This document shows, one piece after another, positions 1-53,983 of a DNA stretch of 64,000 nt. Origin of the DNA: a virus; IMG/VR virus record IMGVR_UViG_3300029188_000196, positions 2,329 to 66,328 of that record; one strand, given 5' to 3'. The notes beneath the pieces are model-generated. The model was given only the letters and a program-made list of their open reading frames with translations, did not search any database and had not been told where the DNA came from. Every line of letters begins with the position of its first letter. Within the stretch, counting starts at the first letter, position 1. The position numbers and the translations under genes are program-made.

Positions 1-559
1 GTGAAATATGGCCAATTTCAGTAACTCAATTAGTGTGCAAAACAGGTTCTTTTTGGCAATGCTACGTCAATACGGTTTGTTGAGTAGACATTTGTTTTGT
101 ACTTTTGTTGCATATAAATAGTTAAATCGTGCAATTATATTTACATTTCGCTTCAACCGGGGTAGTCATTTTCTGAATCGAGTGATTATTCAGGGATTAT
201 GACCGTCCAAAGCCTCTCTTGAAAGAATGAAATTTGCATAAAAATAAGGCCTACCGACAGACGTCGATAGACCTTAGGCATGATAAAATCATTTATTTTG
301 AAATATTGCTCATAGCTGATTATAATCACCTATTTTTATCTTATAAGTAATTATAATCAGTTTTTCATTTTACTTTCCTACACACCACATTTTTTCTTTG
401 CAATGCTAAATTGTAACCAGAGTGGCACTTAGCTGTTCTCCTTCCCAACATTGCCCCTTAGTCTGTTCAGCTGCTATTGTTGCTTTACGACATACAGTGT
501 CTTCTACTCAACGTAGAGTAACCTTGGGACTTATAGCCTCGTCCTTTCTTTATCTGTTG

Positions 560-1785: not shown

Positions 1786-1799
1786 TCTACAAGTTCCTC

Positions 1800-3644
1800 C
1801 TACATAGACATCAAAAGAGCATCCAGTTCACGCTGTACCTCATTTTTGCTCGGAATTGCGCCAATCATGGGATTTTCTACGACCAGTCCATACTCCATTA
1901 CATCGCTGTTCATAATGCTTTGAATCCACTTGCTCCGATATAATCGACATCCCAGATTCATAGCGGAGTTCTCAGCCTTCTTATAATGATTTTTTCCAAT
2001 CAAAGTCTGAGATTCATCCAGTTCAAAAATCAAGAATTTCGTATTTTGCCGCCCACGAGAGATACCACGACACTGATAGCGACAGTCCTGTTTCCAGTTC
2101 ATTTCATCTAATATCGCACCCGCAAAAGCTCTAGATGAAAATCTATTGCAGATGTCATTTGCATTTTGCCAATGAATCGCCGTTGAAGAGTCATGACCGC
2201 TCTTTCGCAGAATTATGACCTGCAGGATTGGATGATATAGCAGTTCCACATATTCACAGTCGTCCAATCTGGTATGACAAGCCTTGCTAAAACGAATTTC
2301 ATTTTTAGCAATTGTAATAACTGGGCTACTATGGTTGATAAAGCAGGCGCTGGAAGCCGTCAGATATTCAGACTGATACATCGAATCTTGTTTTTTCCCG
2401 GCCCTCATATCAGCCATAGCATTTAATTCTACCACTTCTTCTGGCATATAGGCACTCAGACAAAGGCTGCGGATACTTTCATCGTTTATACCACTCCAGT
2501 TCGGATGAATGCCTACAAATCCTTTCAATGCTCCCTGTTTAATTACAACGATATCCTGTACCCCACACCTTTTGCTGCTGGATGCCACAAGATGTGCAGC
2601 TCGTGCAATCTCCGGTGAAACAATCGCTTCGTGATGTTCTGGGACATAAGCCGAGCATCGGTCGCCATTATTCTTCGTCACCTTCCCCAGCTTATAATCT
2701 ACCACGATGCTCTTCCGAGCTTCCAAATCACCCCAGCGGCGTTCGTTTTTCATGATGTTGGCTACCATCATGCCGTTCCACTTTTGCCTGCCTCGCAGGG
2801 TGCTGCGCTTCTTTTTCGTAAGGATCATTGCAATTTGGTCGTAGTCGTACCCTTGAATAAAGGCCAGAAAAATAAAACGTACTGTCTTTGCTTCTTCCGG
2901 CTCGATTACCAGCTGCCCATCCGTTGTATGCCGATATCCCATCAAATCAGCTACCGGATATTGGCCAGTCATAATACGCTGATCATACGAAAGAATCATG
3001 CGACGGCTCTTATTACCAGATTCCCAGTCTGCTAAAAGAGCCTGAACATCCAAGCTATACTGGCTGTCAGGATTAAGCGTGTAAATATTTTCAGTTTCAA
3101 AGTACACACCAATCGGATGAGCCGGATGCATAGTTTTCAGGGCAGCGATTTGTGTCATGCAATCCGAGAAATTTCGAGCAAAACGCGAAACACTGGCACA
3201 AACAACCAAGTCGATTTTTCGCTCTTTTGCATCCTGCATCATGCGCTTAAAAGCATCACGCTTTCTCAGTGATGTACCGGATTTTCCTTCATCACTGTAT
3301 ATATTCTGCAGTGTCCAGTTCTCGGTTTCTGCAATCTTTTTAGTGTAATAGAGAGTTTGATTTTCAATTGAAGAAATCTGCTCTTCGCTGGAAGTACTAA
3401 CACGGGTATAAACCGCCACACGTTTCAGATTACTGTCATAAATAGATGGCGTGGGTTTTGCCGGACGGAAATAGTCTTTTGCCGTTTTCTGGCAGTGGTC
3501 CGTCTGCTTATGAATTCTACCACGAATTTCCGCTTTTCGTCTTTCTGCTTCCGTATGTCGGCTCTGCCAGTCCGTTCCAAGTGGGAGCATCTCAGTTTGT
3601 CCTGCAGGAATATACTCTATGGCTTTTTGTCCTTCTACAATCAT
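1800..3644 (-). CDS. Large serine recombinase (integrase)
   Basis: Resolvase catalytic motif 'VAVYTRVSTSSEEQ...SVSRFARN' followed by a recombinase domain and a long C-terminal extension. 614 aa, with about 75 aa ahead of the catalytic domain. Confidence 0.9.
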   Translation of the reverse strand: MIVEGQKAIEYIPAGQTEMLPLGTDWQSRHTEAERRKAEIRGRIHKQTDHCQKTAKDYFRPAKPTPSIYDSNLKRVAVYTRVSTSSEEQISSIENQTLYYTKKIAETENWTLQNIYSDEGKSGTSLRKRDAFKRMMQDAKERKIDLVVCASVSRFARNFSDCMTQIAALKTMHPAHPIGVYFETENIYTLNPDSQYSLDVQALLADWESGNKSRRMILSYDQRIMTGQYPVADLMGYRHTTDGQLVIEPEEAKTVRFIFLAFIQGYDYDQIAMILTKKKRSTLRGRQKWNGMMVANIMKNERRWGDLEARKSIVVDYKLGKVTKNNGDRCSAYVPEHHEAIVSPEIARAAHLVASSSKRCGVQDIVVIKQGALKGFVGIHPNWSGINDESIRSLCLSAYMPEEVVELNAMADMRAGKKQDSMYQSEYLTASSACFINHSSPVITIAKNEIRFSKACHTRLDDCEYVELLYHPILQVIILRKSGHDSSTAIHWQNANDICNRFSSRAFAGAILDEMNWKQDCRYQCRGISRGRQNTKFLIFELDESQTLIGKNHYKKAENSAMNLGCRLYRSKWIQSIMNSDVMEYGLVVENPMIGAIPSKNEVQRELDALLMSM

Positions 3645-5105: not shown

Positions 5106-5177
5106 GTCGTTCTCACCGCCTCATCCTTGCAACTTAACTTCACGCTTTTATTATACGCCTGTCAGATAATTTTTTCT

Positions 5178-5225
5178 GTGAAGTAACACTTCACATGTGC
5201 AAGGAATTGTGATGTAACACTTCAC
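5178..5225. promoter_or_regulatory. Pair of 17-bp palindromic operators in a divergent promoter region
   Basis: A perfect palindrome GTGAAGTaacACTTCAC at 5178-5194 and a near-copy GTGATGTAACACTTCAC at 5209-5225 lie 31 bp apart, between the minus-strand ATPase gene and the plus-strand XRE gene. Confidence 0.5.
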
Positions 5226-5372
5226 AAAATCGCCTCAGAATACATGACCGCTAGAGGTAGGGCTGTAATCTCTGAGCATTTTCTATCATCAAATGCCCAT
5301 TGCTTGTATACGCTTCCTGAAAAGCGAATAATTATATTGTCTTATGCGGGCATTTGAAAGGAAGTTTTACTT

Positions 5373-5717
5373 ATGTCCGTCAATTATTCCGCTTTAGGGA
5401 AACGTATTGGCTATTTCAGAATGCAGTGCGGTAACATCACCCAAGAAGCCTTAGCTTCTAAAATCAATCGCAGCCGTGAATTTTTGGCTAAAATTGAAAA
5501 AGGCACCGAACATCCAAGCATTGCCACGCTAGTCGATATTGCTGATGCCCTTTGCATTTCTGTTGATGATTTGTTGATTGATAGTCTTCACTATTCTGTT
5601 TCAACATCTAACTCCGAACTGCATCGTTTACTATTGGATTGCAATGAAACAGAGCAGGCCATAATCACCCGCATGGCAAAAGAGTTAAAGGCTACTCTTG
5701 TCAGCCTTGGAATTTAA
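5373..5717 (+). CDS. XRE-family HTH transcriptional regulator (Cro/CI-like)
   Basis: HTH motif 'ITQEALASKINRSREFLAKIEKG'. 114 aa, divergent from the recombinase operon. Confidence 0.9.
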   Translation: MSVNYSALGKRIGYFRMQCGNITQEALASKINRSREFLAKIEKGTEHPSIATLVDIADALCISVDDLLIDSLHYSVSTSNSELHRLLLDCNETEQAIITRMAKELKATLVSLGI

Positions 5718-5823
5718 CATTTTTTCGTAGCAAAGGTTAAAATAAAAAGGCTCGCATAAGCTGCAGACGCACCCTCGAATTCTCCTAGGTGCTGTCTGTG
5801 GTTTATGCGGCCATAGACAGCAA

Positions 5824-5876
5824 TAAAAAAAGCCCACCAACGAACCATGTAGCAATTACACAGTGCGTTAGTGGGC
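5824..5876 (-). terminator. Rho-independent terminator downstream of the AAA-ATPase gene
   Basis: On the minus strand, hairpin GCCCAC...GTGGGC followed by TTTTTTT. Confidence 0.6.
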
Positions 5877-5882
5877 ATGTGG

Positions 5883-7514: not shown

Positions 7515-7585
7515 CTATTGTACTTTGATTTTACCATTTAGAAGGACAAATAGCAAGTTGATATTCCCTCGCAGCACCACTCTTT

Positions 7586-7975
7586 TCAGTCTTTTCTCAA
7601 GAGGATATACACATCTTCGACAAAACTCATGAATTCCACACTGGCTCTCTCGACCATGTGCTTTCCATTTATACCTTTCAACTCTTCCATGACCTTTTCT
7701 GCCGCAACACCTCTCCGCTCTCCCACTTCTTGCATCGTACTCACCACCGCCTCATCGATGAAAGAAGCGTACTTTGCACCATCGATATGGCTTCGTACTG
7801 GCACAAGTTCGCCACTTTCAATGCGGAGCACGTTCGGCATATAGATTCGTTCAATCCTTGCCAGTGCTTCATCAGCTTCCATTTTACAAAGATACAGCTG
7901 CATGGCACTTACAGCCGCAACCTCCGATGCACAAACTCCATAGTTCTCCGATACGAGCTTTGAGATGTTATTCAT
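7586..7975 (-). CDS. Hypothetical protein at the prophage/host junction
   Basis: 129-aa ORF with an AGGAG RBS 8 nt upstream. It sits just downstream of the strong terminator that ends the recombinase operon. Confidence 0.5.
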   Translation of the reverse strand: MNNISKLVSENYGVCASEVAAVSAMQLYLCKMEADEALARIERIYMPNVLRIESGELVPVRSHIDGAKYASFIDEAVVSTMQEVGERRGVAAEKVMEELKGINGKHMVERASVEFMSFVEDVYILLRKD

Positions 7976-8061
7976 TTTGCTTTCTCCTATGTGTATTACT
8001 TGCTACCCACAACATATAACAAAATTCTGCACATAGCAATCCCTGAAAAAAAAATACCTAT

Positions 8062-8104
8062 AAACGAAAAAAGGCCCCGCCAGACTATTTTGTCCAGCGG
8101 GGTC
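8062..8104 (-). terminator. Strong rho-independent terminator ending the prophage late/integrase transcript
   Basis: On the minus strand, GACCCCGCTGG...CCAGCGGGGCC hairpin (6-bp GC stem) followed by TTTTTTCGTTTAT. Confidence 0.7.
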
Positions 8105-8146
8105 GTGATTGTTCACATTTTGCTTCTAGTCGAATCATCTTTTTTC

Positions 8147-10415
8147 TTACACAGCATCTTTACGCTCACGCTTTGCAGCCATCGTCAGGTATCGGCGGTA
8201 CTGAATGCTGAATCCATAAACCTTATACGGAGCATCCACATACTCAACCGTGCCATCCATATTGCACCGCTTGAAACCTCGGAAGCTGTTCAGCGTCCGG
8301 CGGTTTCCAACCGTAGTAAGGGTCACACCGAAGGTCGTCTTGAACTCGACCACATCTCCTTTGACCGTTTCCTTTTCAATGAAAGCACAGTAGATGCCCT
8401 TTTCAAAATGAAGCAGGTCGGGAGCCTCGGCAATCAGCTCCGGTGTAAGTTTCAGGCTACGCTTACGAGTACTCGTAGGGTTGCCATCTTCATCCCTATA
8501 TGCACTACTCTGAACATTCAGCCCATATACCTTCAGAGGCATACCTGCCGTGTTCTGTTCAGGAAGCTGTTTCAGGCAGTCGATGAAGACATCGAAGTTC
8601 TTCTTCATGTTTCCGAGTTCTCCCTGTTCGTTTTCCAGCATACTGCGCTCTTTTCGCAGGTCATCCATACGCTTCCGAATCTCATTTGCAAGCGTGTTAT
8701 AGGTTTCGACCACAGAACCTTCCTCGACATCGATGCTGTACATTCTCGTTCCAAGGTCACTGGCTGTCAGTCCATTGCGGATGTCCATTTCAAGGTCACC
8801 AATGGAAAGGTCACCGTTTGCAATGGCTTCTTTTAAATTCTCGTTCTGCTCCATCGCCGCCTCACGCATTGCAACCACCTGTTTACCGATGATTTCATTC
8901 AGTTTGACTTCCAATTCTTTCACCTGATCGTCCAGAGCTTCGATACGCTGAGCAGAAACTGCACTGTTTTTCACTTTCCGGTAAAACTTGTCGTAGGCAG
9001 CCTTAAACATCCGGACGATATCCGAACCATCACCTTTTGTCTCGTAGTCATACTTTAGTCGGTAGAGCATTTCCATGAAGCTCTGTTCCAAAGCGACCTC
9101 ATGGTAGAGTATGGTAGAGTTCGGAAGGACACCGCTCCTCGGCGGCTTCCCGTTCCGCATCTGTCATCCGCCCCAGTTTGCTGCGGCAGTATTTCTTCTG
9201 GTCAAGAGTTCCAGTCTTGGGTTCTTCCCCTTCCCGTACTCCGGCTTTCCTCTTACAACGCCAGACCGGGAATGCAAAAGTGTACTTCTCCAGATATTCA
9301 CCGCCGTCCTCACCTGTTGCCTGCAAACTCCGCTCATCCGTATAGCCAGATGCCACGTTCGTGTAGGTGAGGCGGAAGAATCCGGCACCGCACTCTTCTC
9401 CATCCGGCAAATGCGTTCCACAGACAAGGTTTACAAAGGGACGTTTCACAATGGTCTTCTTCTCTTTGGTCTTGATGTCTCCCCGGTTGGGTTTGTTGTA
9501 CATCATGGCCTGTACTTTATCCCAAGTCAGACGGTCGATGATTGCGACATGATGGTTTTCGATATAGTAGCGAGGTGCTTCACCACTGTTCTTTGAAGAC
9601 CGATGGGTTAGGAAGTCTTTTGTGATGGTCTTCTGCATCTCAATGTCGCCCACATACTTCTCATTCCGAAGAATGATCATAACGGAACCAGCTGCCCATT
9701 TCTTTCCGTTTACTGTCGGCCGCCCCATCTCATTCAATTCTGCCGCGATTTTAGTGGCGGACAGTCCCAGCAGATACCGCTCAAAGATGTAGCGGACGGT
9801 GGCCGCCTGATCGGAGTTGATGATCCATTCACCATCCGGACCCATATCGTAGCCAATCATGCGCTTCAGATTGATCTGCGGACTGCCGCGCTGGAACTTG
9901 CGCTGGAGTGCCCAGCGGATGTTGTCCGAAATGGAGCGGCTTTCGTCTTGCGCCAGAGCCGAAAGAATGGTCAAAATCAATTCACCAGTTGCATCCAGCG
10001 TATCGATATTCTCTTTTTCAAAGAAAACGCCCACCGGAGGATTGAGCTGTCGAAGCTCACGGATACAAGTTAGTGTATCAACCGTGTTACGGGCAAAACG
10101 GGAAATGGACTTCGATACGATATAATCGATTCTTCCTGCCTTGGCATCATCCATCATGCGGTTGAACTCCACGCGGTGCGCACGGCTCGTGCCGGACAAT
10201 GCTTCGTCCGCATAGATGCCAGCGAAACGCCAGCCCGGTTTGCTGGTGATGAAACTCGTATAAAAAGCTTTCTGGGTCGTATAGGAAGTCTGCTGACTTT
10301 CATCTCCCGTGGAAACACGGCAGTAGGCAGCCACACGGATGTTGTTCTGCATCTTCAACTGACCGCCATTTTGCACAGAGCGTTTGGTTGCCGGAATAAT
10401 AGAAACATTTGCCAT
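8147..10415 (-). pseudogene. Large serine recombinase disrupted by a frameshift (10-bp tandem duplication)
   Basis: An N-terminal ORF (9099..10415; 'VAAYCRVSTGDE...SKSISRFARN') and a C-terminal ORF (8147..9160; coiled-coil and C-terminal domain) sit in frames that differ by +1. Deleting one copy of ATGGTAGAGT at 9101-9120 restores a single reading frame of about 755 aa ('...CPSELYHEVALEQSF...'), matching the neighbouring intact paralog. Confidence 0.8.
9101..9120. repeat. Perfect 10-bp tandem duplication (ATGGTAGAGT x2) causing the recombinase frameshift
   Basis: Read directly from the sequence. Confidence 0.9.
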
Positions 10416-10429
10416 AGTGCTTTCTCCTC

Positions 10430-12661
10430 TCATTTTATAAACCGTTTCCGGTATGCGTTATCCCGCATGACCTGTCCATCATAGTAGCTGGCGGTATTGC
10501 GGAAGTCTTCAATATTGCTGTCCATCTCCACTTTTGTTCGAGTGTCATCGAACCAATGAACACTGTACTTCAGCGGAGAGTAAACCGTGATGGACAGGAT
10601 GAACGCTTTGCAGTGTTCCCCTGTCAATCCATTCAAGAATGCTACGGTTCCCTCTCGGCCCTTGGGAAGCTGTCTCATCCACTGCACCGCTTCTTCTCTG
10701 CGGTCGTAGTCATCTTCCAGCTCATCCCAGTAGTCTTCCAGATAATCGAGCTTGTCCTCCAGCTTCTGGGCTTCGGTCTCATCCTGCTCTATCCGTTTTC
10801 TCAACCGCTCGATTTCCTCTTTTCGCTCAGTCAGGGCCGCTTCATCTATCGTTTCATCTCCAAGCAAGTCCCGCCGGGTCTCCATCGCATCTTTCTGGCT
10901 TTGAAGAAGGCTCATTCTCTTATGGGCAGCTTCTGCGTCTTTCTGGAGTGCGATGATTTGCTTTTTGTAGAAACAACGGTCACGCTCCATGAAGTCAATC
11001 TTCTGCAGGTTTTCAAGCCGTGCCTGCATCTGAATCACAAAGTCATCGGCCTCATGAGTAAGAAAGTCGGTATTCTCTGCGTACCGTCCGCTCATAATGT
11101 CTGCCACGCTCACATCATCCCGAATGGGGGCGCTCGACAACTGGAAGCGTTCTATCACGGCCCTGCGGATAACACGGACAATCTGCTCTTCGTAGACACT
11201 TTCGGCATGGCAGATGCTCTTTCCATTGTTCTGCTTCGCCGAAGGGCAAAACCATATAGGATTCAGATTTCTATTTCTTACATTGAAAAATCGTCCGCAG
11301 CTTCCGCAGATAAGCCGTCCTGAAAAAGCCCACTGTGTTTTTTCCTCTCTCTTGTGCGAATCCGATTTTGCATTGACGATCTTTTGCACCTTTTCAAACA
11401 GTTCCCTGCTCACAATCGCTGGATGATGGTCTTTAATGTAGTACTGCTGAACTTCACCTTTGTTTTTCCGCACTTCATGCGACAGATAGTCAGCAGTATA
11501 GCTTTTCTGTACCAGAACATCTCCAGTATACCGTTCATTGCGAATCATCCCAGCAATCCGACCGTTTGTCCATCCGGTGTCAAGCTCGCTGTTAAGCTGA
11601 CCTTTCTTGGATTTGACCTTGCGCAACTTCTGTGCACTGCTCTCCGGAGCAGGAATGTGCTCACGGTTCAATTTCCTTGCGATGTCTGCAAACGAGAACC
11701 CTTCTGCGACCTCTTGGAAGATGCGCCGGATAACTACAGCTTCCTCCTTAACGATTTCAACTGCCTTATACTTGTAGCCGCTTTCGCTGGTAATCATCTC
11801 ACCATTGTAGCGGTATCCATAGATGTCAACATTCCGCACATCTCCACGCTTAAAGCGCATCTTATTGCCAAGGTTGATGTTGCCGGAGATGCTTCGGCTT
11901 TCCTCTTGCGCAATAGCCCCCAGTGTAGTAAGGATGAATTCACTGGTCGGGTCTGCTGTATCGAGATTTTCTTTCTCGAATAGAATCGTCACATTGTTTT
12001 CTCGAAGCAAATCCAGTGCCATCATAAAATCAGCCGTATTTCGGGCGAATCTCGAAATCGACTTGCAAATCACGCGGTCGATTTTCCCTGCCTTGCAATG
12101 CCGAAGCAGTCTGCGGAAGCCGGTACGCTTTTCACTGTTCGTGCCAGAGATACCATAGTCCGAATATACACCGATGGGATTCCACTCAGGGTTGGCTTCA
12201 ATCAGCTGGTTAAAGTACCGTTCCTGCGTTTCATAGGAGTTTTCCTGGTCAGATGAATCCGTTGAAACACGGATATAAGCGGCAACATTCAGCGTTCCAG
12301 TCTTCTGCTTCGTTGCACGGAAGCTCTCAGCAGAGATGAAATCACCCGGTTTTGCTTCATATACCAATTCCTGAGAGGGCTCATCACTCCTCTCAACCGG
12401 AATCGTAATGTCCTGCCGTACCACGGCGGCCTTCTTTGTGGTGACTGCTTGGTCGATGAACGCCTGCAATGCGGGGTCAACTTTCTTTTTTTGTTGAGTA
12501 GACTTGTCTTTCGTCTGATTTTTCTTGGGTGAAAAAAGAACCGCAGCGGAACCCAGTTCAGGCAGGTTCACAGCTGCGGTCTTGTTAGATGTCTTTGGCT
12601 GTACCGACTTTTCTTCAGTCATCTTCTGCAATTTTGCCAAGAAATCAGTTGTTGTACTCAT
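10430..12661 (-). CDS. Large serine recombinase (integrase) with about 125-aa N-terminal extension
   Basis: 'LNVAAYIRVSTDSSDQ...CKSISRFARNTADF' catalytic domain, recombinase domain, zinc ribbon 'CGSCGRFF', coiled coil. AAAGGAGAG RBS precedes the first ATG, so the Lys/Thr/Gln-rich extension is translated. Its stop overlaps the start of the next recombinase (ATGA). Confidence 0.9.
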   Translation of the reverse strand: MSTTTDFLAKLQKMTEEKSVQPKTSNKTAAVNLPELGSAAVLFSPKKNQTKDKSTQQKKKVDPALQAFIDQAVTTKKAAVVRQDITIPVERSDEPSQELVYEAKPGDFISAESFRATKQKTGTLNVAAYIRVSTDSSDQENSYETQERYFNQLIEANPEWNPIGVYSDYGISGTNSEKRTGFRRLLRHCKAGKIDRVICKSISRFARNTADFMMALDLLRENNVTILFEKENLDTADPTSEFILTTLGAIAQEESRSISGNINLGNKMRFKRGDVRNVDIYGYRYNGEMITSESGYKYKAVEIVKEEAVVIRRIFQEVAEGFSFADIARKLNREHIPAPESSAQKLRKVKSKKGQLNSELDTGWTNGRIAGMIRNERYTGDVLVQKSYTADYLSHEVRKNKGEVQQYYIKDHHPAIVSRELFEKVQKIVNAKSDSHKREEKTQWAFSGRLICGSCGRFFNVRNRNLNPIWFCPSAKQNNGKSICHAESVYEEQIVRVIRRAVIERFQLSSAPIRDDVSVADIMSGRYAENTDFLTHEADDFVIQMQARLENLQKIDFMERDRCFYKKQIIALQKDAEAAHKRMSLLQSQKDAMETRRDLLGDETIDEAALTERKEEIERLRKRIEQDETEAQKLEDKLDYLEDYWDELEDDYDRREEAVQWMRQLPKGREGTVAFLNGLTGEHCKAFILSITVYSPLKYSVHWFDDTRTKVEMDSNIEDFRNTASYYDGQVMRDNAYRKRFIK

Positions 12662-43990: not shown

Positions 43991-44926
43991 TTACCGCCAT
44001 GCGCTGTTCCCTTCCATGTTGTTCAGGTAGTATTCTCTGGCAGTCTTGAATTCGTCACCGATGAAGCCAAGCCTCAGCATCCAGCACCGCATTGCGTACT
44101 TTTCGTTCTCGGTCTGCTGGGGTTTAGGGCTTGCTGTTCTGACCATCTTGGCAAGCTGGTTGATGGCAAGGCAAAGCTGGATGAATGACTTGACCTGTCC
44201 AGCATGCATTCCGTTCTGCTTGCCATCGTGAGGGCAGTCGAATTGAAAAAGCCGAAATTCGATGGTGTGGTGTCCGTGGAAGAAGCTGTGCAGGTTGCAA
44301 ACTCGATATCGTGACGAATTGTAGTGGGTGTACCGATTCCCGTCCGCATTCTGTGTCTGATACCAGAGGTCTTCAAGCTCCTCCATCGTTCTGGGCTTCT
44401 TTCGATTGACCCCTTCCAGAAACTTGGGGTCAACCGTTCGGCAGTAACGGTTCATTCGGTTGCGGTCAATTCGGATTGCTTTTGCCAGCTGGCTTTCATG
44501 GGCCGCCATGATGTTCACGAGGTTTCGGATGGTCTGCGGTGTGTGTCCCTCCCCGCTGATATGAACATGAACTCCCGCCATTCTGGTGTAATCACTTTTC
44601 ATTCCGGCTTTCCGCAGTGCTCTTACAACCCCCTGCAGAAGTTCCATGTCCTCGTAATGAAGAATGGGGCTGACCATTTCACATTTCTGGCTTTCCGGGC
44701 CGGTAATGCTGACATCCTTCTGAAACTTCCACTCCCTGCCCTGCGCATCCCACGCACTCCACGCATCGTAGCCGTTGCGTCCTGCAGTGTATTCGTAGCG
44801 GTCGGTCTCAAAATACCGTGCCGCCGTTCTGGCAGCTTTCTCTCTCGTGATATTGTTACCCTCGATTTCAATACCGAATGTAGGCTTCTTCATGGCTTCA
44901 ATCTGCTCTCTTGTTTTATCATTCAT
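43991..44926 (-). CDS. Amidoligase (GCS2/COG2170-like carboxylate-amine ligase, 'Amidoligase_2')
   Basis: 'KKPTFGIEIEGNN' N-terminal strand and 'GVHVHISGEGH' HxH motif, as in the glutamate-cysteine-ligase-2 / PF12224 family. 311 aa. Preceded by module P7. Confidence 0.7.
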   Translation of the reverse strand: MNDKTREQIEAMKKPTFGIEIEGNNITREKAARTAARYFETDRYEYTAGRNGYDAWSAWDAQGREWKFQKDVSITGPESQKCEMVSPILHYEDMELLQGVVRALRKAGMKSDYTRMAGVHVHISGEGHTPQTIRNLVNIMAAHESQLAKAIRIDRNRMNRYCRTVDPKFLEGVNRKKPRTMEELEDLWYQTQNADGNRYTHYNSSRYRVCNLHSFFHGHHTIEFRLFQFDCPHDGKQNGMHAGQVKSFIQLCLAINQLAKMVRTASPKPQQTENEKYAMRCWMLRLGFIGDEFKTAREYYLNNMEGNSAWR

Positions 44927-44948
44927 GGTATGTTCTCCTTTGGCTTTC

Positions 44949-44997
44949 TTCCCTTTCGGTGTGTGTATATTACCGTCAGGAACGGACTAATTCAAGG
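44949..44997 (-). promoter_or_regulatory. Early promoter-operator module, copy P7 (TTGAAT-17-TAATAT)
   Basis: Conserved module sequence. Confidence 0.55.
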
Positions 44998-45065
44998 CCA
45001 TAAAAGAACATATAGTCGACAAATATACAGTAGAAAAATCGTGTACATTTCTGCGATTTATCCGC

Positions 45066-45094: not shown

Positions 45095-45151
45095 CGGTAC
45101 AATGGAAGAAGGTCTCGCATATTTCCGGCCCCCATTGGGGGGCTTGGGAGC

Positions 45152-46522: not shown

Positions 46523-48694
46523 TTATTCTTCCAGTCCTGCGCACCATGCGATGCCTGCCAGAACAAAGTACACACATGGAAGTGCGACACCGTTACCCCA
46601 GAGTTTGTACTCAGCCGCATCCGAATACGGATCTGCCAGCCATTTCCGGATTTGCTTCTCCGTCTTCGGCTTCTTCGCATGGGTCACGATCTTACGGTGT
46701 GTTTCAAACACATCTGCCCAGAATGCCAACTCTTCCTCGGTTGGATTTTCCGTTCCAAGGTCTCTGCACCACCAATCCGGGAATCCTTGAAGTCTGGCAC
46801 ACTCGGTCGGTGTCAGGCGGCGGACGGTGTAGGTCACAGGTGTGGACTGTGCTTCCGGGTTGTCGATGACAAGACGGTCATTGAAAGCGTCCTGCCCATT
46901 GAAGCCGCTGGGATGTGCCCCGCTCGCCACGGTACCAGCCACACCCTCGTTCAGATGCGGTGCCGGTGCAATGGTGGTCGGGTCTTTGTAATCCCGTGCC
47001 ATCAGAGTCGGAGATACATTCTCCTCTACTCGCATAAAGGAGCCAGTGGTCATGGCATACACATCTTCCGGTGCGCAGACTGCATGACGGTCAGTGGCGT
47101 CCAGCGTAAAGCAGACATCCTCATTGACCCCATCTCCCTGTGGACCATTCTCGTCCTTGCGGCCGATCATGTTACCCTGCAGGACGAAGGTCTGCATCTG
47201 GTCGCTTCGGGTCGCCATGAGTGCGCCAGACTTTCCATGCAGGTCAATCAGCTCATTGCGCTGATTCACATGGAAAGCAGTCACATCTTCCGGCTGTACC
47301 ACAAAGGTCTGCTGTTTCATTCCCGGCTCTGCTGCCAGTGCCGCTGACTTGTCCCCCAGATCCCGGACTTCATCTCTCTGGTTCTGGGTAAAAGCAACAG
47401 GCTCTACCACACAGATGCCGCCCTGATTGCAAGTCGGAGCACCGCCGCTGCGGTCCAGTGTCCGGGAAGTTTCCGCTTCATAGAAACCGCTATGCGGATT
47501 GTCGGACATCATGGAATGGCTGGCTTTCGAGCAGACACCATAGCATTTCGGGACGAACAGTGTCTGGTCGTTGTTACAGCCAAGGGTGGCCGATTTTTCT
47601 TCCTGCCAGATGACTCCCTTGCCGCCGCCCTCACACCCGGAACGGATCTTCAGCGTGACTGCCGGAGAATTATCTGCACCATCCATGACCAGCGGAACAT
47701 TGCCACCGCCCGTACCGCATCGGCTGGTCAGCGTTTGAACCTTGCCATCTTCGGAAATCTTCACCCTGCTGTCTGCCGGATGATTTTCCAATGCAATGGC
47801 GGCAGGTACGACACCTGCCCGGAGGGTCGGTGACCGTTCTTCCTCATATCCGATGCTTCTGGCATTTGCGGAATGCTCAGTACAGAAACCAGCAGCTTCA
47901 AGAATCTCTCCCGGCTTGTTCAGGCCGATTCTTCCTGCACAGCTTGCCGTTCCAATGCCGCTTTCAGAACTGGCGGCAGCTCTTTGCCACGCACGGAAGC
48001 TCTCCGGAGAATACCGAGACAGGCCTTCGGACTTAAATAGTACTTTTCCGGCACTTTGACCTGCAAAGTCTGCGACAAGGAACAGACGTTTTCTTCGTTG
48101 AGCCAAGCCGAAGTGTTGAGCATCGAGAGTTCTGTATGCCACGCTCCATCCGTCTCCCAGAATAATATCGGCGGTTGCCCACTTTCCCTTTTCAGGCATA
48201 GGCAGCGGTGGCGCTTCTGGCTCTTTGACTGCGATGATTTCTTCAAGGACCGACTTAAAGTCCTCACCGGATTTGCTGGAGAACAGTCCGGGAACGTTCT
48301 CGACGACAAAATATCGTGGGTTTTCTCCATCGGTTGCTTCCCTCATTTCTTTAATAATCCTGACCGCCTCATAAAACAGACCACTTCGGGTTGTCTTTTC
48401 TCCGCCGTGGTCGATATGCTGAACGCCCTCTCTTTTTCCAGCCACAGAAACGGACTGGCAAGGGAAACCACCTGTGATGATATCTACAGGAGGGAGTTCC
48501 GCTCCACGAAGACTGGAAATATCTCCGTAGTGGATTACCTGCGGCAGTCGTTTTGTAGTCACACGAATTGGGAATGGTTCAACTTCACAGTTCCAGACCG
48601 GCTGGATTCCTGCAAGCAGCCCTCCCAATTCAAAACCCCCGGAACCTGCAAAGAGGCTGCCGAGGGTCAAGGTCTTATTCTGTTCTGTACTCAT
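46523..48694 (-). CDS. DNA (cytosine-5)-methyltransferase, large (723 aa; probably multispecific phage-type)
   Basis: Motif I 'LFAGSGG', motif IV 'GFPCQSVSVAG', motif VI 'FVVENVPGL'. A long variable region suggests several target-recognition domains. Confidence 0.85.
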   Translation of the reverse strand: MSTEQNKTLTLGSLFAGSGGFELGGLLAGIQPVWNCEVEPFPIRVTTKRLPQVIHYGDISSLRGAELPPVDIITGGFPCQSVSVAGKREGVQHIDHGGEKTTRSGLFYEAVRIIKEMREATDGENPRYFVVENVPGLFSSKSGEDFKSVLEEIIAVKEPEAPPLPMPEKGKWATADIILGDGWSVAYRTLDAQHFGLAQRRKRLFLVADFAGQSAGKVLFKSEGLSRYSPESFRAWQRAAASSESGIGTASCAGRIGLNKPGEILEAAGFCTEHSANARSIGYEEERSPTLRAGVVPAAIALENHPADSRVKISEDGKVQTLTSRCGTGGGNVPLVMDGADNSPAVTLKIRSGCEGGGKGVIWQEEKSATLGCNNDQTLFVPKCYGVCSKASHSMMSDNPHSGFYEAETSRTLDRSGGAPTCNQGGICVVEPVAFTQNQRDEVRDLGDKSAALAAEPGMKQQTFVVQPEDVTAFHVNQRNELIDLHGKSGALMATRSDQMQTFVLQGNMIGRKDENGPQGDGVNEDVCFTLDATDRHAVCAPEDVYAMTTGSFMRVEENVSPTLMARDYKDPTTIAPAPHLNEGVAGTVASGAHPSGFNGQDAFNDRLVIDNPEAQSTPVTYTVRRLTPTECARLQGFPDWWCRDLGTENPTEEELAFWADVFETHRKIVTHAKKPKTEKQIRKWLADPYSDAAEYKLWGNGVALPCVYFVLAGIAWCAGLEE

Positions 48695-49464
48695 TCGGCA
48701 ACCTCCTCTCCGAGCATCTGCTCATTGGCTTTCTGGTAAAAATCTCTGGATACCTCAAATCCATAGCTGTTGCGGCCAAGCTCCCGTGCGGCACGAAGGG
48801 TCGAACCGCTGCCAGCACATGGGTCAATAACCACATCGCCGGGGTCAGTGAAAGTTTCGATCAGGCGTTTCAGCACAGAGATTGGTTTCTGAGAGGGATG
48901 AATTTTCGGATATTCCTTACTATCCCGTTTCCAGTCAAACCAGTTGAAGATCATGTGGGGCTTGCCGTCCTCACCGAGATTGCGGAACTTGGGGAGCTTG
49001 CCCCGGTACAGCACCAGCGCATACTCCGTTGCACCCACAATCTTCATGTTGGCTTTGAGTACCTGTGGACTGTAGTTCTTACAGAACACCAGTGGGATAT
49101 AATTCTTGAAGCCGTATTTTTCCGCTTCGGTGATCACCTTCGGGATCTGCTGGAACGCACAGAACACAATCATGCATGGCGCGTCCTTTTCACCCGTGCC
49201 GGGTTCTTTCTTCAGCAGGCGGTTGCAGAAATGGAAATATTCTGCAATGTTGAAAGTGAAGTCGGTATTGAATGCCGCTTTCCTCGCCTTGCTGCTCTCC
49301 CCGTTTTTGTTGTCGCCATCCACATACCAGTCCGGCCGACTGGCGTAGAAGTCCGTACCGATGTTGTACGGAATGTCTGCGATCACCAGCTGTGCCTTGG
49401 GGATGTTGTAGGACTTGAAGTTCTGGAAGTTGTCATGGATGAGGACACATTTTACATCAGGCAT
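48691..49464 (-). CDS. DNA N6-adenine/N4-cytosine methyltransferase (beta-class)
   Basis: 'VIADIPYNIG' DPPY motif and 'HPSQKPISVLKRLIETFTDPGDVVIDPCAGSGST' AdoMet motif. The likely start is the internal ATG at about 49464. Confidence 0.8.
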   Translation of the reverse strand: MPDVKCVLIHDNFQNFKSYNIPKAQLVIADIPYNIGTDFYASRPDWYVDGDNKNGESSKARKAAFNTDFTFNIAEYFHFCNRLLKKEPGTGEKDAPCMIVFCAFQQIPKVITEAEKYGFKNYIPLVFCKNYSPQVLKANMKIVGATEYALVLYRGKLPKFRNLGEDGKPHMIFNWFDWKRDSKEYPKIHPSQKPISVLKRLIETFTDPGDVVIDPCAGSGSTLRAARELGRNSYGFEVSRDFYQKANEQMLGEEVAE

Positions 49465-50737
49465 CGGCATCCACACTTTCCGGCTCAAAGGTCGCCACTT
49501 CCTCAAACTTCAGCTTCTGACTGTCACGGATAACATACACATCATCGTAGTGACCCTCCCGGAACTGAATGTAGCGTTTGACTGCAACATCCACGAACTT
49601 CGGTTCCACCTCCACACCATAACAGATACGATCGATCTGTTCACAGGCAATCAGGGTCGATGCGCTGCCGAGGAAGCCGTCCAGAACAATGCCGTTGGTC
49701 ATGGTGGACTGCTTGATCAGATAGGCAATCAGTGGAACAGGCTTGCTGGAGGGGTGGCCGAAACCATCCTCTTTGGAGTTCTTGATGCCCTCAAATTCAA
49801 ACACATTGGTCTGCTTCTGATCGCCGTACCAGCGATGACGGCCGTCCTTACGCCAGCCAAAGATGATAGGCTCGGAGTTGAACTTCCAGTCGGTACGCAT
49901 AAAAGGCGCACGAGGCTTCTTCCAAATCAGGCCGGCTCCCACCTTGAAGCCCGCATCCTCGAAAGCATCGTAAAACACACGGGCTTTCATCGTGGCGTAG
50001 AATTCATAGATGGAAGCGTCCATCGCCATCGCATTTTTGAAGTTGGCGTAGACCTTCATCAAAAACTCGTAGGCGGACTTGTCATCCAGATCATCATTCT
50101 TGATACTGCCGGAAGCATTCTCCAGCTTGACGAAGTAAGGTGCATCGGTACAGACCAGATTAACCTTGGTATCGCCCAGCAGATTTTTATAAACCTCCGG
50201 GTCCGTGGAATCTCCGCAGATGGCTGTGTGTTTACCAAGGTGCCAGATATCTCCGGCCTTGGAAAAACACGGCTGTTTCAGTTCAGATTCCACATCGAAA
50301 TCATCATCTTTCACATCCTTGTCGTGGACACTAGTAAAGAGTTCACTGATTTCCGGTGGCTCAAAACCTGTCTTTCCGAGGTCGAAGTTTGAATCTTCGA
50401 GGTCTTTCAGCAGATCAGCCAGCAGGGAATCATCCCATGCACCCGTAATCTTGTTGAGTGCGATGTTCAGGGCTTTCTCCCTGGTCTTGTCGATGTCCAC
50501 CACCGCGCAAGGCACTTCGGTGTAGCCCAGCTCCATCGCTACGGTCAGTCTCTGGTGACCACCGATGATCGTCATATCGGCATTGACCACCAAAGGATCT
50601 GCGAAGCCGAACTCCGTGATGGAGTTCTTGATCTTCTCGTACTCTTTGTCCCCCGGCTTCAGCTTCTTCCGGGGATTGTATGCGGCCGGCTTGAGTACGG
50701 ACACCGGCAGCATCTTCAATTCAGCAGTCGCTTTCAT
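49457..50737 (-). CDS. ParB-like nuclease domain fused to DNA methyltransferase (N6/N4 family)
   Basis: N-terminal ParB/Srx motif 'IIGGHQRLTVAMELG'. C-terminal 'HPSSKPVPLIAYLI...DGFLGSASTLIACEQ' MTase motifs. Confidence 0.8.
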   Translation of the reverse strand: MKATAELKMLPVSVLKPAAYNPRKKLKPGDKEYEKIKNSITEFGFADPLVVNADMTIIGGHQRLTVAMELGYTEVPCAVVDIDKTREKALNIALNKITGAWDDSLLADLLKDLEDSNFDLGKTGFEPPEISELFTSVHDKDVKDDDFDVESELKQPCFSKAGDIWHLGKHTAICGDSTDPEVYKNLLGDTKVNLVCTDAPYFVKLENASGSIKNDDLDDKSAYEFLMKVYANFKNAMAMDASIYEFYATMKARVFYDAFEDAGFKVGAGLIWKKPRAPFMRTDWKFNSEPIIFGWRKDGRHRWYGDQKQTNVFEFEGIKNSKEDGFGHPSSKPVPLIAYLIKQSTMTNGIVLDGFLGSASTLIACEQIDRICYGVEVEPKFVDVAVKRYIQFREGHYDDVYVIRDSQKLKFEEVATFEPESVDADA

Positions 50738-50758
50738 GTAGATCCTCCCACTTTAGAT

Positions 50759-52518: not shown

Positions 52519-53586
52519 TCAGTCCTCCCACGGAAGACCAGCCTTGCCGAAGTGACCGTAGGCACTGACCTTGTTGTAGTCCACGTCCAGCAATCCCAGC
52601 CGCTTGATGATACCCTGCGGAGTCAGGTCGTAGCTGTCTTTGACATAAGCCTGAATGAACTCCAAGTCCTCACGCTCCGTGCCGAAGCACTCGACCGACA
52701 CACCCACCGGCTGAACCACACCAATGGCGTAGGCCAGCTGGACTTCGCACTTGTCAGCGTAGCCAGCCTGCACAATGTTCTTGGCAATCTTCCGTGCCAT
52801 GTATGCTGCGGAGCGGTCCACCTTGGTGGGGTCTTTACCGCTCAGAGCACCACCGCCCATGCGACCGATGCCGCCATAGGTGTCACACGCCAACTTCCGG
52901 CCGGTCACACCGCAGTCTGCGTAGCTACCACCCAGCACGAAACGGCCGGTCGGATTCACAAGCTTCGTGAAGTCACCGTTCAGACCATACTCGCAGGCGG
53001 CCAGCACCATCATAGATTCGATGATGTGGCGGAAGTCGCTGACCTCCACATCCGGGCTATGCTGCACGGAGCAGAGAAATGTGGTAATGCGACCAGTGTC
53101 GTAATCATAGCTGACCTGTGCCTTGGCATCTGCACGGAACATCTTAGTTGGATGATTCTTCAGCAGTTGCAGGAACTTGGTTGCTACCATGTATGGAATC
53201 GGCATCTGCTCTGCCGTTTCGTTTGTAGCGTAACCGTACATGATTCCCTGGTCACCGGCACCACCCTTATCCACGCCGAGTGCGATGTCCGGCGACTGTT
53301 TGTCCACCAAAACGCCGATGCGAATTCGGTCGCTAAAGTCGAAGCCCATCTTCTCCGCACCAATGTGAGTAATCACATTGTGTACGAGCTGATGGTAGTT
53401 CGGCTGATAGTCAGTCGTCATCTCGCCAGCAATAAAGAGCTGGTTCTTCTTCAGCAGGCATTCGATTGCGACACGCGCATTCTTGTCGTGCTTCAGAACA
53501 TCCGTCACGATGGCGTCTGCAATCTGGTCACAGATTTTATCGGGATGGCCGTTGCTGACCTGTTCACAGGTAATGATCTTGCTCAT
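52519..53586 (-). CDS. metK: S-adenosylmethionine synthetase (MetK), phage-encoded
   Basis: 'SEQVSNGHPDKICDQIADAI' N-terminal signature and 'GGGALSGKDPTKVDRSAAYMAR' C-terminal signature. Start at 53586 with a GGAGGG RBS. Confidence 0.85.
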   Translation of the reverse strand: MSKIITCEQVSNGHPDKICDQIADAIVTDVLKHDKNARVAIECLLKKNQLFIAGEMTTDYQPNYHQLVHNVITHIGAEKMGFDFSDRIRIGVLVDKQSPDIALGVDKGGAGDQGIMYGYATNETAEQMPIPYMVATKFLQLLKNHPTKMFRADAKAQVSYDYDTGRITTFLCSVQHSPDVEVSDFRHIIESMMVLAACEYGLNGDFTKLVNPTGRFVLGGSYADCGVTGRKLACDTYGGIGRMGGGALSGKDPTKVDRSAAYMARKIAKNIVQAGYADKCEVQLAYAIGVVQPVGVSVECFGTEREDLEFIQAYVKDSYDLTPQGIIKRLGLLDVDYNKVSAYGHFGKAGLPWED

Positions 53587-53983
53587 GGTTCTTGCCCTCC
53601 ATCTCTTTCCAGCCATTTTCTTTATTGCCACAGTTCTTACAAGTGTAGTAAAGCGTGGAATTGTCGCACTCCTCCATGTGAGGTTGAAGGCGTTTCCCGC
53701 ACTTGGGACAGTGTCGAATCGGGACGACCGTAGCTCTCAAATCGAAGCCACTCCAATTGGACAACTCATACGGATAAACTACGCGCTTACCCTCTTCCTC
53801 CGCTTCTGCCAGACAATAGCAGTTCGGTGTGTCTACACAATCACGCATCACGACATTGTCCTCGTCATCGGTATCCACACACATAACCGTCATGCCATCG
53901 GGCAAAGGAATGAGCCGCATCAGCTGGATGTCCTCATATCCGTCTGTATCTGTTCCCAAGAAGTCCTGATTACCGTTTTTCAT
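53564..53983 (-). CDS. Hypothetical acidic protein with C-terminal zinc ribbon
   Basis: 'CPKCGKRL...CKNCGNK' CxxC pairs. The ATG at 53983 is the likely start. Confidence 0.4.
   Translation of the reverse strand: MKNGNQDFLGTDTDGYEDIQLMRLIPLPDGMTVMCVDTDDEDNVVMRDCVDTPNCYCLAEAEEEGKRVVYPYELSNWSGFDLRATVVPIRHCPKCGKRLQPHMEECDNSTLYYTCKNCGNKENGWKEMEGKNHEQDHYL

What the first reader, a model, noticed from the sequence alone, without database searches (positions are those of the whole stretch)
9095..9165. Integrase paralog inactivated by a perfect 10-bp tandem duplication
ATGGTAGAGT is duplicated at 9101-9120. Removing one copy fuses the 444-aa and 337-aa ORFs into a single large serine recombinase of about 755 aa, co-linear with its intact neighbour. 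The lesion is recent (no further decay). It could arise or revert by slipped-strand mispairing or recombination. If both recombinases are needed, as for ccrA/ccrB-type pairs, the prophage may be locked in the chromosome.
Basis: seen in the sequence. Interest (0 to 1): 0.65.

Follow-up and report, generated by a model that had tools for sequence, protein, structure and literature searches.

The report
Widespread frameshifted integrase in gut prophage
One of three large serine recombinase genes of a roughly 82-kb Faecalibacterium prophage is split by an exact 10-bp tandem duplication, but this broken allele is common in public gut metagenomes and sits in different host strains, so it probably has not locked the phage in place.

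Summary
ATGGTAGAGT occurs twice in tandem at 9101-9120. It puts a +1 frameshift into a minus-strand large serine recombinase gene (LSR-B). Public contigs carry the same gene with one copy and an intact 752-aa reading frame.

The frameshift falls six residues after the fourth invariant zinc-ribbon cysteine. It removes the whole predicted coiled-coil and C-terminal domain.

The "recent, private lesion" and "locked prophage" readings are not supported. The exact truncated product is on 871 contigs (1582 index blocks). Each intact variant examined is on 13 contigs or fewer.

Duplication-bearing prophages differ by 0.01-0.09% from one another. Their Faecalibacterium flanks differ by 1.3-3%, and the change happens at the prophage end. 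One copy sits at a different locus. So the phage seems to have lysogenised several strains after the duplication arose.

The phage carries three LSRs: A and B adjacent, and C near the attachment end. The A-B pairing is conserved down to 33% identity. In this lineage B, A or C has each been broken independently.

Best reading: a real, widespread loss-of-function allele of an integrase paralog that this phage can do without. Ordinary in kind, moderately interesting in context.

The parts
9101..9110 (-). 10-bp unit, copy nearer the 3' end of the gene (ACTCTACCAT in gene orientation). Its last base is the first base of the premature TGA stop (9101-9099).
9111..9120 (-). 10-bp unit, copy nearer the 5' end of the gene. 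Public intact alleles have only one copy.
9099..10415 (-). LSR-B N-terminal fragment, 438 aa (444 aa if started at 10433). Contains the Resolvase catalytic domain (R33 V34 S35 T36 motif), the Recombinase domain and four invariant zinc-ribbon cysteines. Ends ...SELYH-TLP*.
   Evidence: Pfam; alignment; model; exact product P0121 on 871 contigs
8147..9160 (-). Mechanical 337-aa ORF. From 9100 downward it is the original LSR-B frame (residues 436-752: predicted coiled-coil helices 436-612 and a C-terminal alpha/beta domain 645-751). The first 20 codons are out-of-frame leader.
   Evidence: exact product P0135 on 831 contigs
9089..9100 (-). GAGG (9100-9097), a 5-nt spacer, then TTG (9091-9089) in the C-terminal frame, 8 nt after the premature stop. 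A possible termination-reinitiation site. This is inference from sequence only.
   Evidence: read sequence
10430..12661 (-). LSR-A, intact 743-aa large serine recombinase immediately upstream. Its stop overlaps the first ATG of the LSR-B ORF. The A-B adjacency is conserved in all relatives examined.
   Evidence: Pfam; synteny; BLASTP
1800..3644 (-). LSR-C, intact 614-aa third large serine recombinase. It is the LSR nearest the prophage right end and is part of an HTH / AAA_25 / 163-aa / LSR-C / 274-aa / 134-aa module.
76..89 (-). Motif GTCTACTCAACAAA (gene orientation) at junction J1. Some related contigs diverge exactly here. In this lineage a 276-bp piece, J2 and the true right end J3 follow; J3 lies about 290 nt beyond window position 1.
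12490..12503 (-). Second, direct copy of the same 14-mer inside the 5' part of LSR-A (codons ~53-58). It is conserved in relatives whose flanking sequence has diverged.

Best explanation
The window lies inside a roughly 82-kb temperate Faecalibacterium prophage. Behind its lysis genes it carries an integration region with three large serine recombinases: LSR-A and LSR-B as an adjacent pair, and LSR-C about 4.5 kb further on, near the attachment end.

Shown:
- In this allele a 10-bp tandem duplication shifts the LSR-B frame by +1 directly after the zinc-ribbon module.
- The product stops after residue 435 plus three foreign residues. It lacks the coiled-coil and the C-terminal domain.
- The allele is common, and it occurs in several host backgrounds.

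Inferred:
- The truncated protein could still fold, bind DNA and perhaps cleave. Without the coiled-coil it should not make productive, directional synapses.
- The duplication arose once, in a phage that then kept spreading. Full-length LSR-B is therefore dispensable for lysogenising new hosts. Integration at the right-end site (J3) is carried out by LSR-C and/or LSR-A.
- The A-B system and the C module are at least partly redundant in this lineage, so lesions in any one of them are tolerated.
For: - The frameshift is real, and an intact allele exists with a single copy.
- The break lies 6 residues after invariant C429 and just before invariant E436/Q441-Y448. Many invariant residues lie in the lost 317 aa.
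- The AlphaFold model has zinc-ribbon strands at 330-387, helices from 436 to 612 and a C-terminal domain at 645-751. Its best Foldseek hits are full-length serine integrases.
- Listeria integrase lacking the coiled-coil only relaxes DNA and gives a small fraction of products (PMC5499577).
- The exact truncated product is on 871 contigs / 1582 blocks, in contigs up to 347 kb. The exact downstream ORF is on 831 contigs, plus a variant on 179. Intact variants are on 13 contigs or fewer each.
- Duplication-bearing loci are 0-3 SNPs apart over 5 kb and 0.01-0.09% apart over 10.9 kb. Their flanks (acyltransferase, groES, groEL, PBP, secG, RNase R) differ by 1.3-3.0%. The flank differences are spread evenly over 4-9 kb, and in three of the four host flank types compared the jump happens at the prophage end.
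- Duplication-bearing L272 sits at another locus, homologous to the one used by intact-B L304.
- Independent lesions occur in each LSR. B: P0084, P0124, P0125/P0127, L256. A: the P0139 lineage. C: L301. A and B together: L022.
Against: - No excised (attP) form or virion-derived copy of the duplication allele was seen.
- Two small DNA scans gave 0 duplication: 2 intact in IMG/VR and 2: 1 in a metagenome set.
- Nine of 13 duplication-bearing loci share one flank haplotype over the first 600 nt. Part of the prevalence is therefore vertical, or came by homologous recombination.
- Some copies are visibly decaying or rearranged (L256, L259, L254), as expected for a grounded prophage.
- The A-B pair is conserved in every relative down to 33% identity, which argues that B normally matters.
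- Which LSR acts at which site is not established.
Confidence: 0.55

Rival explanations
1. Grounded prophage. LSR-B is needed together with LSR-A, as in a CcrAB-type pair, so the duplication blocks excision. The allele is common because the host lineage is common and the region moves between strains by homologous recombination.
For: - The A-B adjacency is conserved in all relatives.
- The C-terminal half is strongly conserved in homologs.
- There are several independent LSR lesions and decayed copies in this prophage family.
- Most duplication-bearing copies sit at one locus with one near-flank haplotype.
- No excised form was seen, and IMG/VR holds only intact copies.
Against: - Prophage divergence is 0.01-0.09% against a uniform 1.3-3% in 4-9 kb of flank. 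In three of the four host flank types compared the jump is at the prophage end, within about 35 nt in L275.
- There is a duplication-bearing copy at a second locus (L272).
- The structural, lysis, LSR-A and LSR-C genes examined in the window have full-length ORFs with the expected Pfam domains.
Confidence: 0.25
2. Split but working recombinase. The N-terminal fragment (catalytic, recombinase and zinc-ribbon domains) and a separately translated C-terminal fragment (coiled-coil and C-terminal domain) are both made and act together. Alternatively, a coiled-coil-less B subunit works inside an A-B hetero-oligomer.
For: - The break lies exactly at a predicted domain boundary.
- A GAGG-N5-TTG in the C-terminal frame lies 8 nt after the premature stop, and an ATG-initiated 337-aa ORF overlaps it.
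- The downstream frame is still open in the two common variants, on 831 and 179 contigs.
- The allele is successful.
Against: - Diversity is too low to test for selection. There is only one substitution in the C-terminal part among 19 loci.
- L256 has a further 207-nt duplication in the C-terminal part that splits the downstream ORF into two called genes.
- No naturally split homolog was seen among 120 listed relatives.
- No precedent for a two-chain large serine recombinase was looked for or found here.
Confidence: 0.12
3. Reversible switch. The two 10-bp copies expand and contract by slippage, turning LSR-B off and on.
For: Loss of one copy would restore the frame exactly. Both states exist in nature on backgrounds 6 SNPs apart over 5 kb.
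Against: - The single-copy sequence has no flanking microhomology to regenerate the duplication.
- In the sample, duplication alleles form one tight clade. No intact allele lies within 0-1 SNP of it.
- Two copies of a 10-mer are a poor slippage tract.
Confidence: 0.04
4. Assembly or sequencing artefact.
For: None found.
Against: The same 20-bp sequence occurs in dozens of fetched contigs from independent cohorts and assemblers. The exact product is indexed on 871 contigs.
Confidence: 0.01

Closest known systems
CcrA/CcrB of staphylococcal SCC elements
   Same: Two adjacent, co-oriented large serine recombinase paralogs on a mobile element. The adjacency is conserved across relatives.
   Different: - Scores are far below the NCBIfam CcrA/CcrB/CcrC cut-offs: 139 bits or less against 700-900.
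- The host element is a tailed phage with a third LSR.
- CcrA and CcrB are reported to act together as a heterotetramer (PMC10581047). Here the element appears to spread with B broken.
Triplets of serine integrases in streptococcal ICEs, and the 2-3 LSR genes of Streptococcus phages such as phi-m46.1 and the phi-Ssu_rum phages
   Same: Several LSR paralogs lie near one end of the element, all in the same orientation. Insertion is inside genes, with very short repeats (PMC4701971). The phage records each match LSR-B at 2-3 places, and the best match is 44-45% identical over the N-terminal ~350 residues.
   Different: Here the three genes are not contiguous: an HTH/AAA_25 module separates B from C. 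The C-terminal halves are unrelated at sequence level. The division of labour is unknown in both systems.
Single phage serine integrases (Listeria A118/LI, phiC31, Bxb1, SPbeta) and their coiled-coil deletion mutants
   Same: Same domain order: catalytic, recombinase, zinc ribbon, coiled-coil. The truncation resembles an engineered coiled-coil deletion mutant, which loses efficient, directional recombination (PMC5499577).
   Different: LSR-B has a much longer helical region and an extra C-terminal alpha/beta domain of about 110 aa. No Pfam Zn_ribbon_recom hit. Sequence similarity to solved integrases is limited to the N-terminal domain.
Grounded or defective prophages with inactivated integrase or excision genes
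   Same: A frameshift in a recombinase gene of a prophage, with other family members carrying deletions.
   Different: The broken allele is the most frequent exact allele seen, and it is found in diverged host strains with essentially no prophage divergence.

Membership tests
Large serine recombinase (serine integrase) | N-terminal resolvase-type catalytic domain with the nucleophilic serine | tested here: met
   PF00239, E = 5e-30, in the 444-aa fragment. R33 V34 S35 T36 are invariant in 42 homologs.
Large serine recombinase (serine integrase) | Recombinase domain (PF07508) after the long alpha-E helix | tested here: met
   PF07508, E = 2e-25. Model helices and strands at 189-305.
Large serine recombinase (serine integrase) | Zinc-ribbon domain with four zinc ligands | tested here: inconclusive
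   No PF13408 hit for LSR-B. However, four cysteines (C332, C342, C387, C429) are invariant in 42 homologs, and beta strands are predicted at 330-387.
Large serine recombinase (serine integrase) | Coiled-coil motif that controls synapsis and directionality | tested here: met
   In the repaired protein, long helices are predicted at 436-612 and the best fold matches are full-length integrases. In the window allele this part is out of frame, so the encoded 438-aa product lacks it.
Large serine recombinase (serine integrase) | Catalyses attP x attB recombination | not testable with these tools
   Junctions were mapped only by comparing contigs.
CcrAB-type obligate pair | Two adjacent co-transcribed LSR paralogs, with the pairing conserved among relatives | tested here: met
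   An A ortholog lies directly upstream of the B ortholog in L013-L031, down to 33% identity. In the window the A stop overlaps the first ATG of the LSR-B ORF, and the likely true start lies 14 nt further on.
CcrAB-type obligate pair | Sequence membership in the CcrA / CcrB families | tested here: not met
   NCBIfam SCCmet_CcrB 139 bits for B and 78 for A, against a cut-off of 900. CcrA 49 and 48 bits against a cut-off of 700.
CcrAB-type obligate pair | Both proteins required for mobility | tested here: inconclusive
   Indirect evidence only. Duplication-bearing prophages occur in several host backgrounds and at two loci, which argues against a requirement. There is no direct assay.
Phase-variable (slippage) switch | Both states interspersed on the same genetic background, with a repeat tract prone to slippage | tested here: not met
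   The duplication alleles form one tight clade, 6 SNPs from the nearest intact allele. There are only two copies and no flanking microhomology.

The most novel reading that the evidence does not exclude
The duplication may not be a simple knockout. It cuts LSR-B exactly at the zinc-ribbon / coiled-coil boundary, and a ribosome-binding-like GAGG-N5-TTG sits just after the new stop. The phage might therefore make a two-chain recombinase, or a coiled-coil-less B subunit that alters site choice or directionality of an A-B(-C) complex. That change could be why this one allele is by far the most frequent exact allele of this Faecalibacterium phage in public gut metagenomes.
Probability: 0.1. Interest if true: 0.7.

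Novelty: new member of a known kind. Interest (0 to 1): 0.4.

Why it matters
Phages and ICEs of Firmicutes often carry two or three large serine recombinases, and nobody knows how the work is divided among them. This phage offers a natural experiment. It is abundant in the human gut. Its commonest allele lacks full-length LSR-B, other lineages lack LSR-A or LSR-C, and intact versions of each exist at over 99% identity.

Comparing these variants could show which recombinase serves which attachment site. That bears on prophage stability in a key gut commensal, and on the use of multi-LSR systems as genome-engineering tools.

As an annotation matter, the finding also shows that a 'pseudogene' call here should not be read as 'defective prophage'.

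Tried and rejected
- **Assembly artefact.** Rejected. The same sequence occurs in many independent assemblies.
- **Naturally short upstream protein.** Rejected. Homologs are 750-770 aa.
- **dN/dS on the downstream part within the duplication clade.** Only 21 SNPs in 12.6 kb across 19 loci, so there is no power.
- **Tree of duplication versus intact alleles.** The duplication alleles form one tight clade. Sampling was by exact protein identity, so it is biased.
- **Allele counts by DNA pattern.** IMG/VR gave 0 duplication: 2 intact and the metagenome contig collection gave 2: 1. These are too few to weigh.
- **A fourth, TnpX-like recombinase (LSR-D) in the flank of L001-L003 as part of the phage.** Rejected. 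Other contigs share it only up to junction J2.
- **Junction type (J1, J2 or J3) correlating with the state of LSR-B.** Rejected. Intact-B lineages also end at J3.
- **Recombinant junctions between the LSR-A-internal motif and J1** (a deletion, or a circle). None found in any fetched locus.
- **The same end-motif / LSR-A arrangement in distant A-B relatives.** Only chance-level matches.
- **The prophage left end in L173.** Not within 10 kb of the polymerase gene. It was located only provisionally in L297. A further IMG/VR scan returned the same contig.
- **Host naming from the flank PBP.** The top hits had no names. A cluster member named Faecalibacterium intestinale.
- **Similarity to characterised phages.** None at the DNA level.
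- **+1 ribosomal frameshifting at CCA-TGA.** Considered and judged unlikely from the codons alone. Not tested.
Full report
**1. The observation**

The plus strand reads ...cctc ATGGTAGAGT ATGGTAGAGT tcgg... at 9101-9120. The two 10-mers are identical, and the repeat does not extend on either side. TRF lists it as period 10, 2.0 copies, 100% match. It is the only exact period-10 pair in the window. One hundred Markov-1 simulations gave a mean of 0.05 such pairs per 64 kb.

The gene runs on the minus strand. Its frame reads GAA CTC TAC CAT ACT CTA CCA TGA, so translation ends at 9101-9099 after ...SELYH-TLP. Removing one copy joins ORF 9099..10433 and ORF 8147..9160 into one ORF of 758 aa. The likely true start is the ATG at 10415, preceded by GGGGAGAG. 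This gives 752 aa, the length gene callers chose on public contigs.

**2. Is the single-copy form the ancestral, functional one?**

Yes.
- At the DNA level, ten contigs carrying P0001 have exactly one ACTCTACCAT between identical flanks. Two other contigs have the same two copies as the window.
- In an alignment of 42 full-length homologs, four cysteines (C332, C342, C387, C429) are invariant. So are E436, Q441, S442, F443, M444, E445, L447 and Y448, and many residues up to F708.
- The frameshift falls between H435 and E436.
- An AlphaFold model built on this alignment (mean pLDDT 73.8) has this layout:
  - catalytic domain 26-175
  - recombinase domain 189-305
  - zinc-ribbon strands 330-387
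  - almost continuous helices 436-612
  - a C-terminal alpha/beta domain 645-751
- Its best Foldseek hits in the PDB are full-length serine integrases: SPbeta-type complexes, phiC31, Bxb1 and 4KIS.

The 438-aa product therefore keeps the catalytic serine motif and the DNA-binding domains, but loses the whole coiled-coil and the C-terminal domain. For the Listeria integrase, deleting the coiled-coil leaves an enzyme that relaxes DNA but gives only a small fraction of recombinant products on both attP x attB and attL x attR substrates (PMC5499577). By inference, the truncated LSR-B is not a competent integrase on its own.

**3. Context**

The whole window is phage. Gene content on the minus strand, from the high end of the window to the low end:
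- family A DNA polymerase
- VapE-type primase/helicase
- SNF2 helicase
- SAM synthetase
- two DNA methylases
- terminase, portal, capsid
- tape measure and tail
- GDSL tail protein
- holin, LysM protein, amidase/glucosaminidase lysin
- LSR-A (10430..12661, 743 aa)
- LSR-B (broken)
- a 129-aa protein
- an AAA-ATPase_like/PDDEXK_9 protein
- a divergently oriented HTH protein
- an AAA_25 ATPase
- a 163-aa protein
- a third recombinase, LSR-C (1800..3644, 614 aa)
- 274-aa and 134-aa proteins

All three LSRs carry the RVST catalytic motif.

A and B share 38% identity over only the N-terminal ~350 residues. C and B share 38% over 270 residues. All three fall in PHROG 95, 'integrase'. They score far below the NCBIfam cut-offs for CcrA, CcrB, CcrC and XisF.

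The flanking host genes include a penicillin-binding protein whose 90% cluster contains a Faecalibacterium intestinale protein, so the host is Faecalibacterium. No characterised phage is similar at the DNA level.

**4. The pair and the third recombinase in relatives**

- In every relative recovered from GTDB genomes with a full-length B ortholog (L013-L031, 33-66% identity), an A ortholog lies directly upstream.
- The downstream HTH / AAA_25 / LSR-C module is present only in relatives with 59% identity or more. More distant elements have A-B alone.
- Multi-LSR sets are known. Streptococcal ICEs carry triplets of serine integrases that cluster by position (PMC4701971). Many Streptococcus phage records each match LSR-B at 2-3 places.
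- CcrA and CcrB are reported to work as a heterotetramer, whereas CcrC works alone (PMC10581047).

**5. How common is the broken allele?**

| Product | Contigs | Source |
|---|---|---|
| Exact 438-aa product of the window (P0121, also NCBI DAZ17711.1 'MAG TPA: integrase [Caudoviricetes sp.]') | 871, longest 347 kb; 1582 index blocks | |
| Exact 337-aa downstream ORF | 831 | |
| One-residue variant of the 337-aa ORF | 179 | |
| Intact 752-aa variants listed | 2-10 each in the cluster listing; 12-13 each for the four read with the look-up of encoding contigs | |

- The duplication-bearing samples come from many cohorts.
- A short exact sequence collects more contigs than a long one, and only part of the cluster was listed, so the ratio is rough.
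- Two small DNA scans gave 0 duplication: 2 intact (IMG/VR) and 2: 1 (a metagenome contig set).
- Even so, the duplication allele is by far the most frequent single allele, and it is certainly not private to this assembly.

**6. Is the prophage locked?**

*Divergence of prophage against flank.*
- Nineteen duplication-bearing loci differ by only 21 SNPs over 12.6 kb. They are 0-3 SNPs apart over 5 kb. The nearest intact alleles are 6 SNPs away.
- Where contigs run into the host, the prophage part differs by 0.01-0.09% between samples. The host flank (a 36-codon ORF, acyltransferase, groES, groEL, PBP, secG, RNase R, L31) differs by 1.3-3.0%.
- The flank differences are spread evenly, at 2-13 per 500 nt over 4-9 kb, so these are different strains rather than one clone with imported patches.
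- The change from 0-2 to about 60 differences per 500 nt happens at the prophage end in three of the four host flank types compared. In L275 it is within about 35 nt.

*Integration sites.*
- One duplication-bearing copy (L272) abuts a glycosyltransferase operon instead. Its junction sequence is homologous to that of an intact-B prophage (L304).
- The simplest reading is that the duplication arose once and the phage then lysogenised several strains by site-specific integration.

*Caveats.*
- Nine of 13 loci share one near-flank haplotype.
- Transfer by homologous recombination cannot be fully excluded.
- No excised form was seen.
- Some copies are decaying or rearranged:
  - L256 has a further 207-nt tandem duplication in the LSR-B C-terminal part.
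  - L259 has ICE genes in place of the structural genes.
  - L254 is rearranged.

**7. Other lesions in the same phage family**

- Independent frameshifts and deletions of LSR-B: P0084 and relatives, P0124, P0125/P0127.
- A 95%-identity lineage (P0139) has intact LSR-B. A deletion runs from the lysin into LSR-A residue 472, and most structural genes are lost.
- In one intact-B contig, LSR-C is split into 107 + 480 aa (L301).
- In a Blautia schinkii relative, A is missing and B is truncated, while the C module remains (L022).

Each LSR can thus be lost in some lineage. This fits partial redundancy between the A-B system and the C module. It also fits ongoing domestication.

**8. Ends of the element (partly resolved)**

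- Comparing contigs shows three junction points at the right end, each on a copy of one motif:
  - J1: GTCTACTCAACAAA | CCGTATTGACGTAGC, at window 76-89.
  - J2: 276 bp further on, with ACGGTTTGTTGAGT, a perfect 14-bp inverted repeat of J1.
  - J3: about 60 bp further, CAGCTGTTGAGTAGAGCATG | host.
- Most lineages, whether intact or duplicated, end at J3. L001-L003 break at J2. L095 and the P0139 lineage break at J1.
- The right flank of J3 begins with the last 36 codons of a small coiled-coil gene. A full-length homolog, 78% identical over that part, lies about 18 kb beyond the high end of the window in contig L297. This looks like attL, with a phage-supplied replacement 3' end, and gives a prophage of about 82 kb.
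- A CI-like repressor (HTH_3 + Peptidase_S24) lies between that point and the polymerase.
- The 14-mer of J1 recurs as a direct repeat inside the 5' part of LSR-A (12490-12503). It is conserved there in relatives whose neighbouring sequence has diverged. Its role is unknown, and no recombinant between the two copies was found.

**9. Verdict**

It is wrong, or at least unsupported, about the lesion being recent and private and about its consequence.
- The most likely account is a genuine loss-of-function allele of one of three integrase paralogs, tolerated because the others suffice, that has become the common form of an abundant Faecalibacterium phage (confidence about 0.55).
- The locked-prophage reading keeps about 0.25.
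- A working split enzyme keeps about 0.12. The break at a domain boundary, and a GAGG-N5-TTG in the C-terminal frame 8 nt after the stop, keep that reading open, but nothing tests it.
- In kind this is an ordinary frameshift in a known enzyme family. Its value is as a natural set of single-LSR knockouts for working out how multi-LSR modules operate.

Noticed in passing
window 76-89 and 12490-12503: The 14-mer GTCTACTCAACAAA at the prophage-end junction J1 recurs as a direct repeat inside the 5' part of the LSR-A ORF (codons ~53-58, KSTQQK). The chance expectation for a 14-mer match in 64 kb is about 5e-4. The internal copy is kept unchanged or with one or two substitutions in the relatives with 58% identity or more that were checked, while the surrounding sequence diverges. 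At J1 an ATG precedes the motif in the same frame. Function unknown.
   Followed up: partly
window 1-89 and about 290 nt beyond position 1 (L273:10850-11250): The right end has three junction points, J1, J2 and J3, each on a copy of the ACTCAACAAA / TTGTTGAGT motif. J1 and J2 are perfect 14-bp inverted repeats (ACTCAACAAACCGT) around a 276-bp segment. Different contigs break at each of the three. No inverted version of the segment was seen.
   Followed up: partly
window 560-7975: Between LSR-B and the prophage end lies a conserved module: 129-aa protein, a variable cargo slot (here AAA-ATPase_like/PDDEXK_9), a divergently oriented HTH, an AAA_25 ATPase, a 163-aa protein, LSR-C, and 274-aa and 134-aa proteins. 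It is about 81% identical at the DNA level among relatives whose LSR-A/B region was too divergent to be matched by the same DNA search. It might be an exchangeable or once-separate integrative unit.
   Followed up: partly
L262-L271, L256, L259, L301, L022; proteins P0084, P0124, P0125, P0127: Independent lesions in the recombinase genes of the same prophage family: other frameshifts and deletions in LSR-B, a lysin-to-LSR-A deletion with loss of structural genes, a split LSR-C, and a 207-nt tandem duplication inside the LSR-B C-terminal part.
   Followed up: partly
window 23658-23675, 59596-59613, 62225-62255: Three more exact short tandem duplications (9 bp x2, 9 bp x2, 12 bp x2.6), all multiples of three. 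Small tandem duplications seem frequent in this genome, and only the LSR-B one has a length that is not a multiple of three.
   Followed up: no
L014 (Blautia faecis DFI.3.66) and L027 (Faecalibacterium intestinale CLA-AA-H281): A prophage whose LSR-B is about 65% identical to the window's is 99% identical over 19.5 kb in isolates assigned to two different families. The two diverge exactly at J1. This means either a very broad host range or a mislabelled or contaminated assembly.
   Followed up: no
L298, L303, L304, L306 and other loci: The intact-allele variants P0137 and P0138 were recovered largely from Hadza and Nepal samples. The record names of the duplication-bearing contigs point to a different set of cohorts, whose origins were not checked. 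A possible geographic or lifestyle structure of the alleles was not tested.
   Followed up: no
window 8000-8942; GenBank MT838665.1 and MT836278.1: Two unannotated 'Bacteriophage sp.' records from human faeces match parts of the window at 99.6-99.9%. MT838665.1 stops matching at window 8942, inside the LSR-B C-terminal part. MT836278.1 matches as two pieces spread over about 19 kb of the query while covering only about 7 kb of it. Possible recombinants or chimeras.
   Followed up: no
window 43991-53631: The phage carries a SAM synthetase (52519..53631), a ParB_N-fused N6/N4 methylase (49457..50737), a C5 cytosine methylase (46523..48694) and an amidoligase (43991..44926). This looks like an anti-restriction or DNA-modification set.
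   Followed up: no
L001:20632-21681, L002:19486-21108, L298:20436-21563: Several intact-allele prophages abut a TnpX-like recombinase gene (Recombinase + Zn_ribbon_recom + DUF4368) that belongs to another element. The phage may sometimes insert next to or into other mobile elements.
   Followed up: partly
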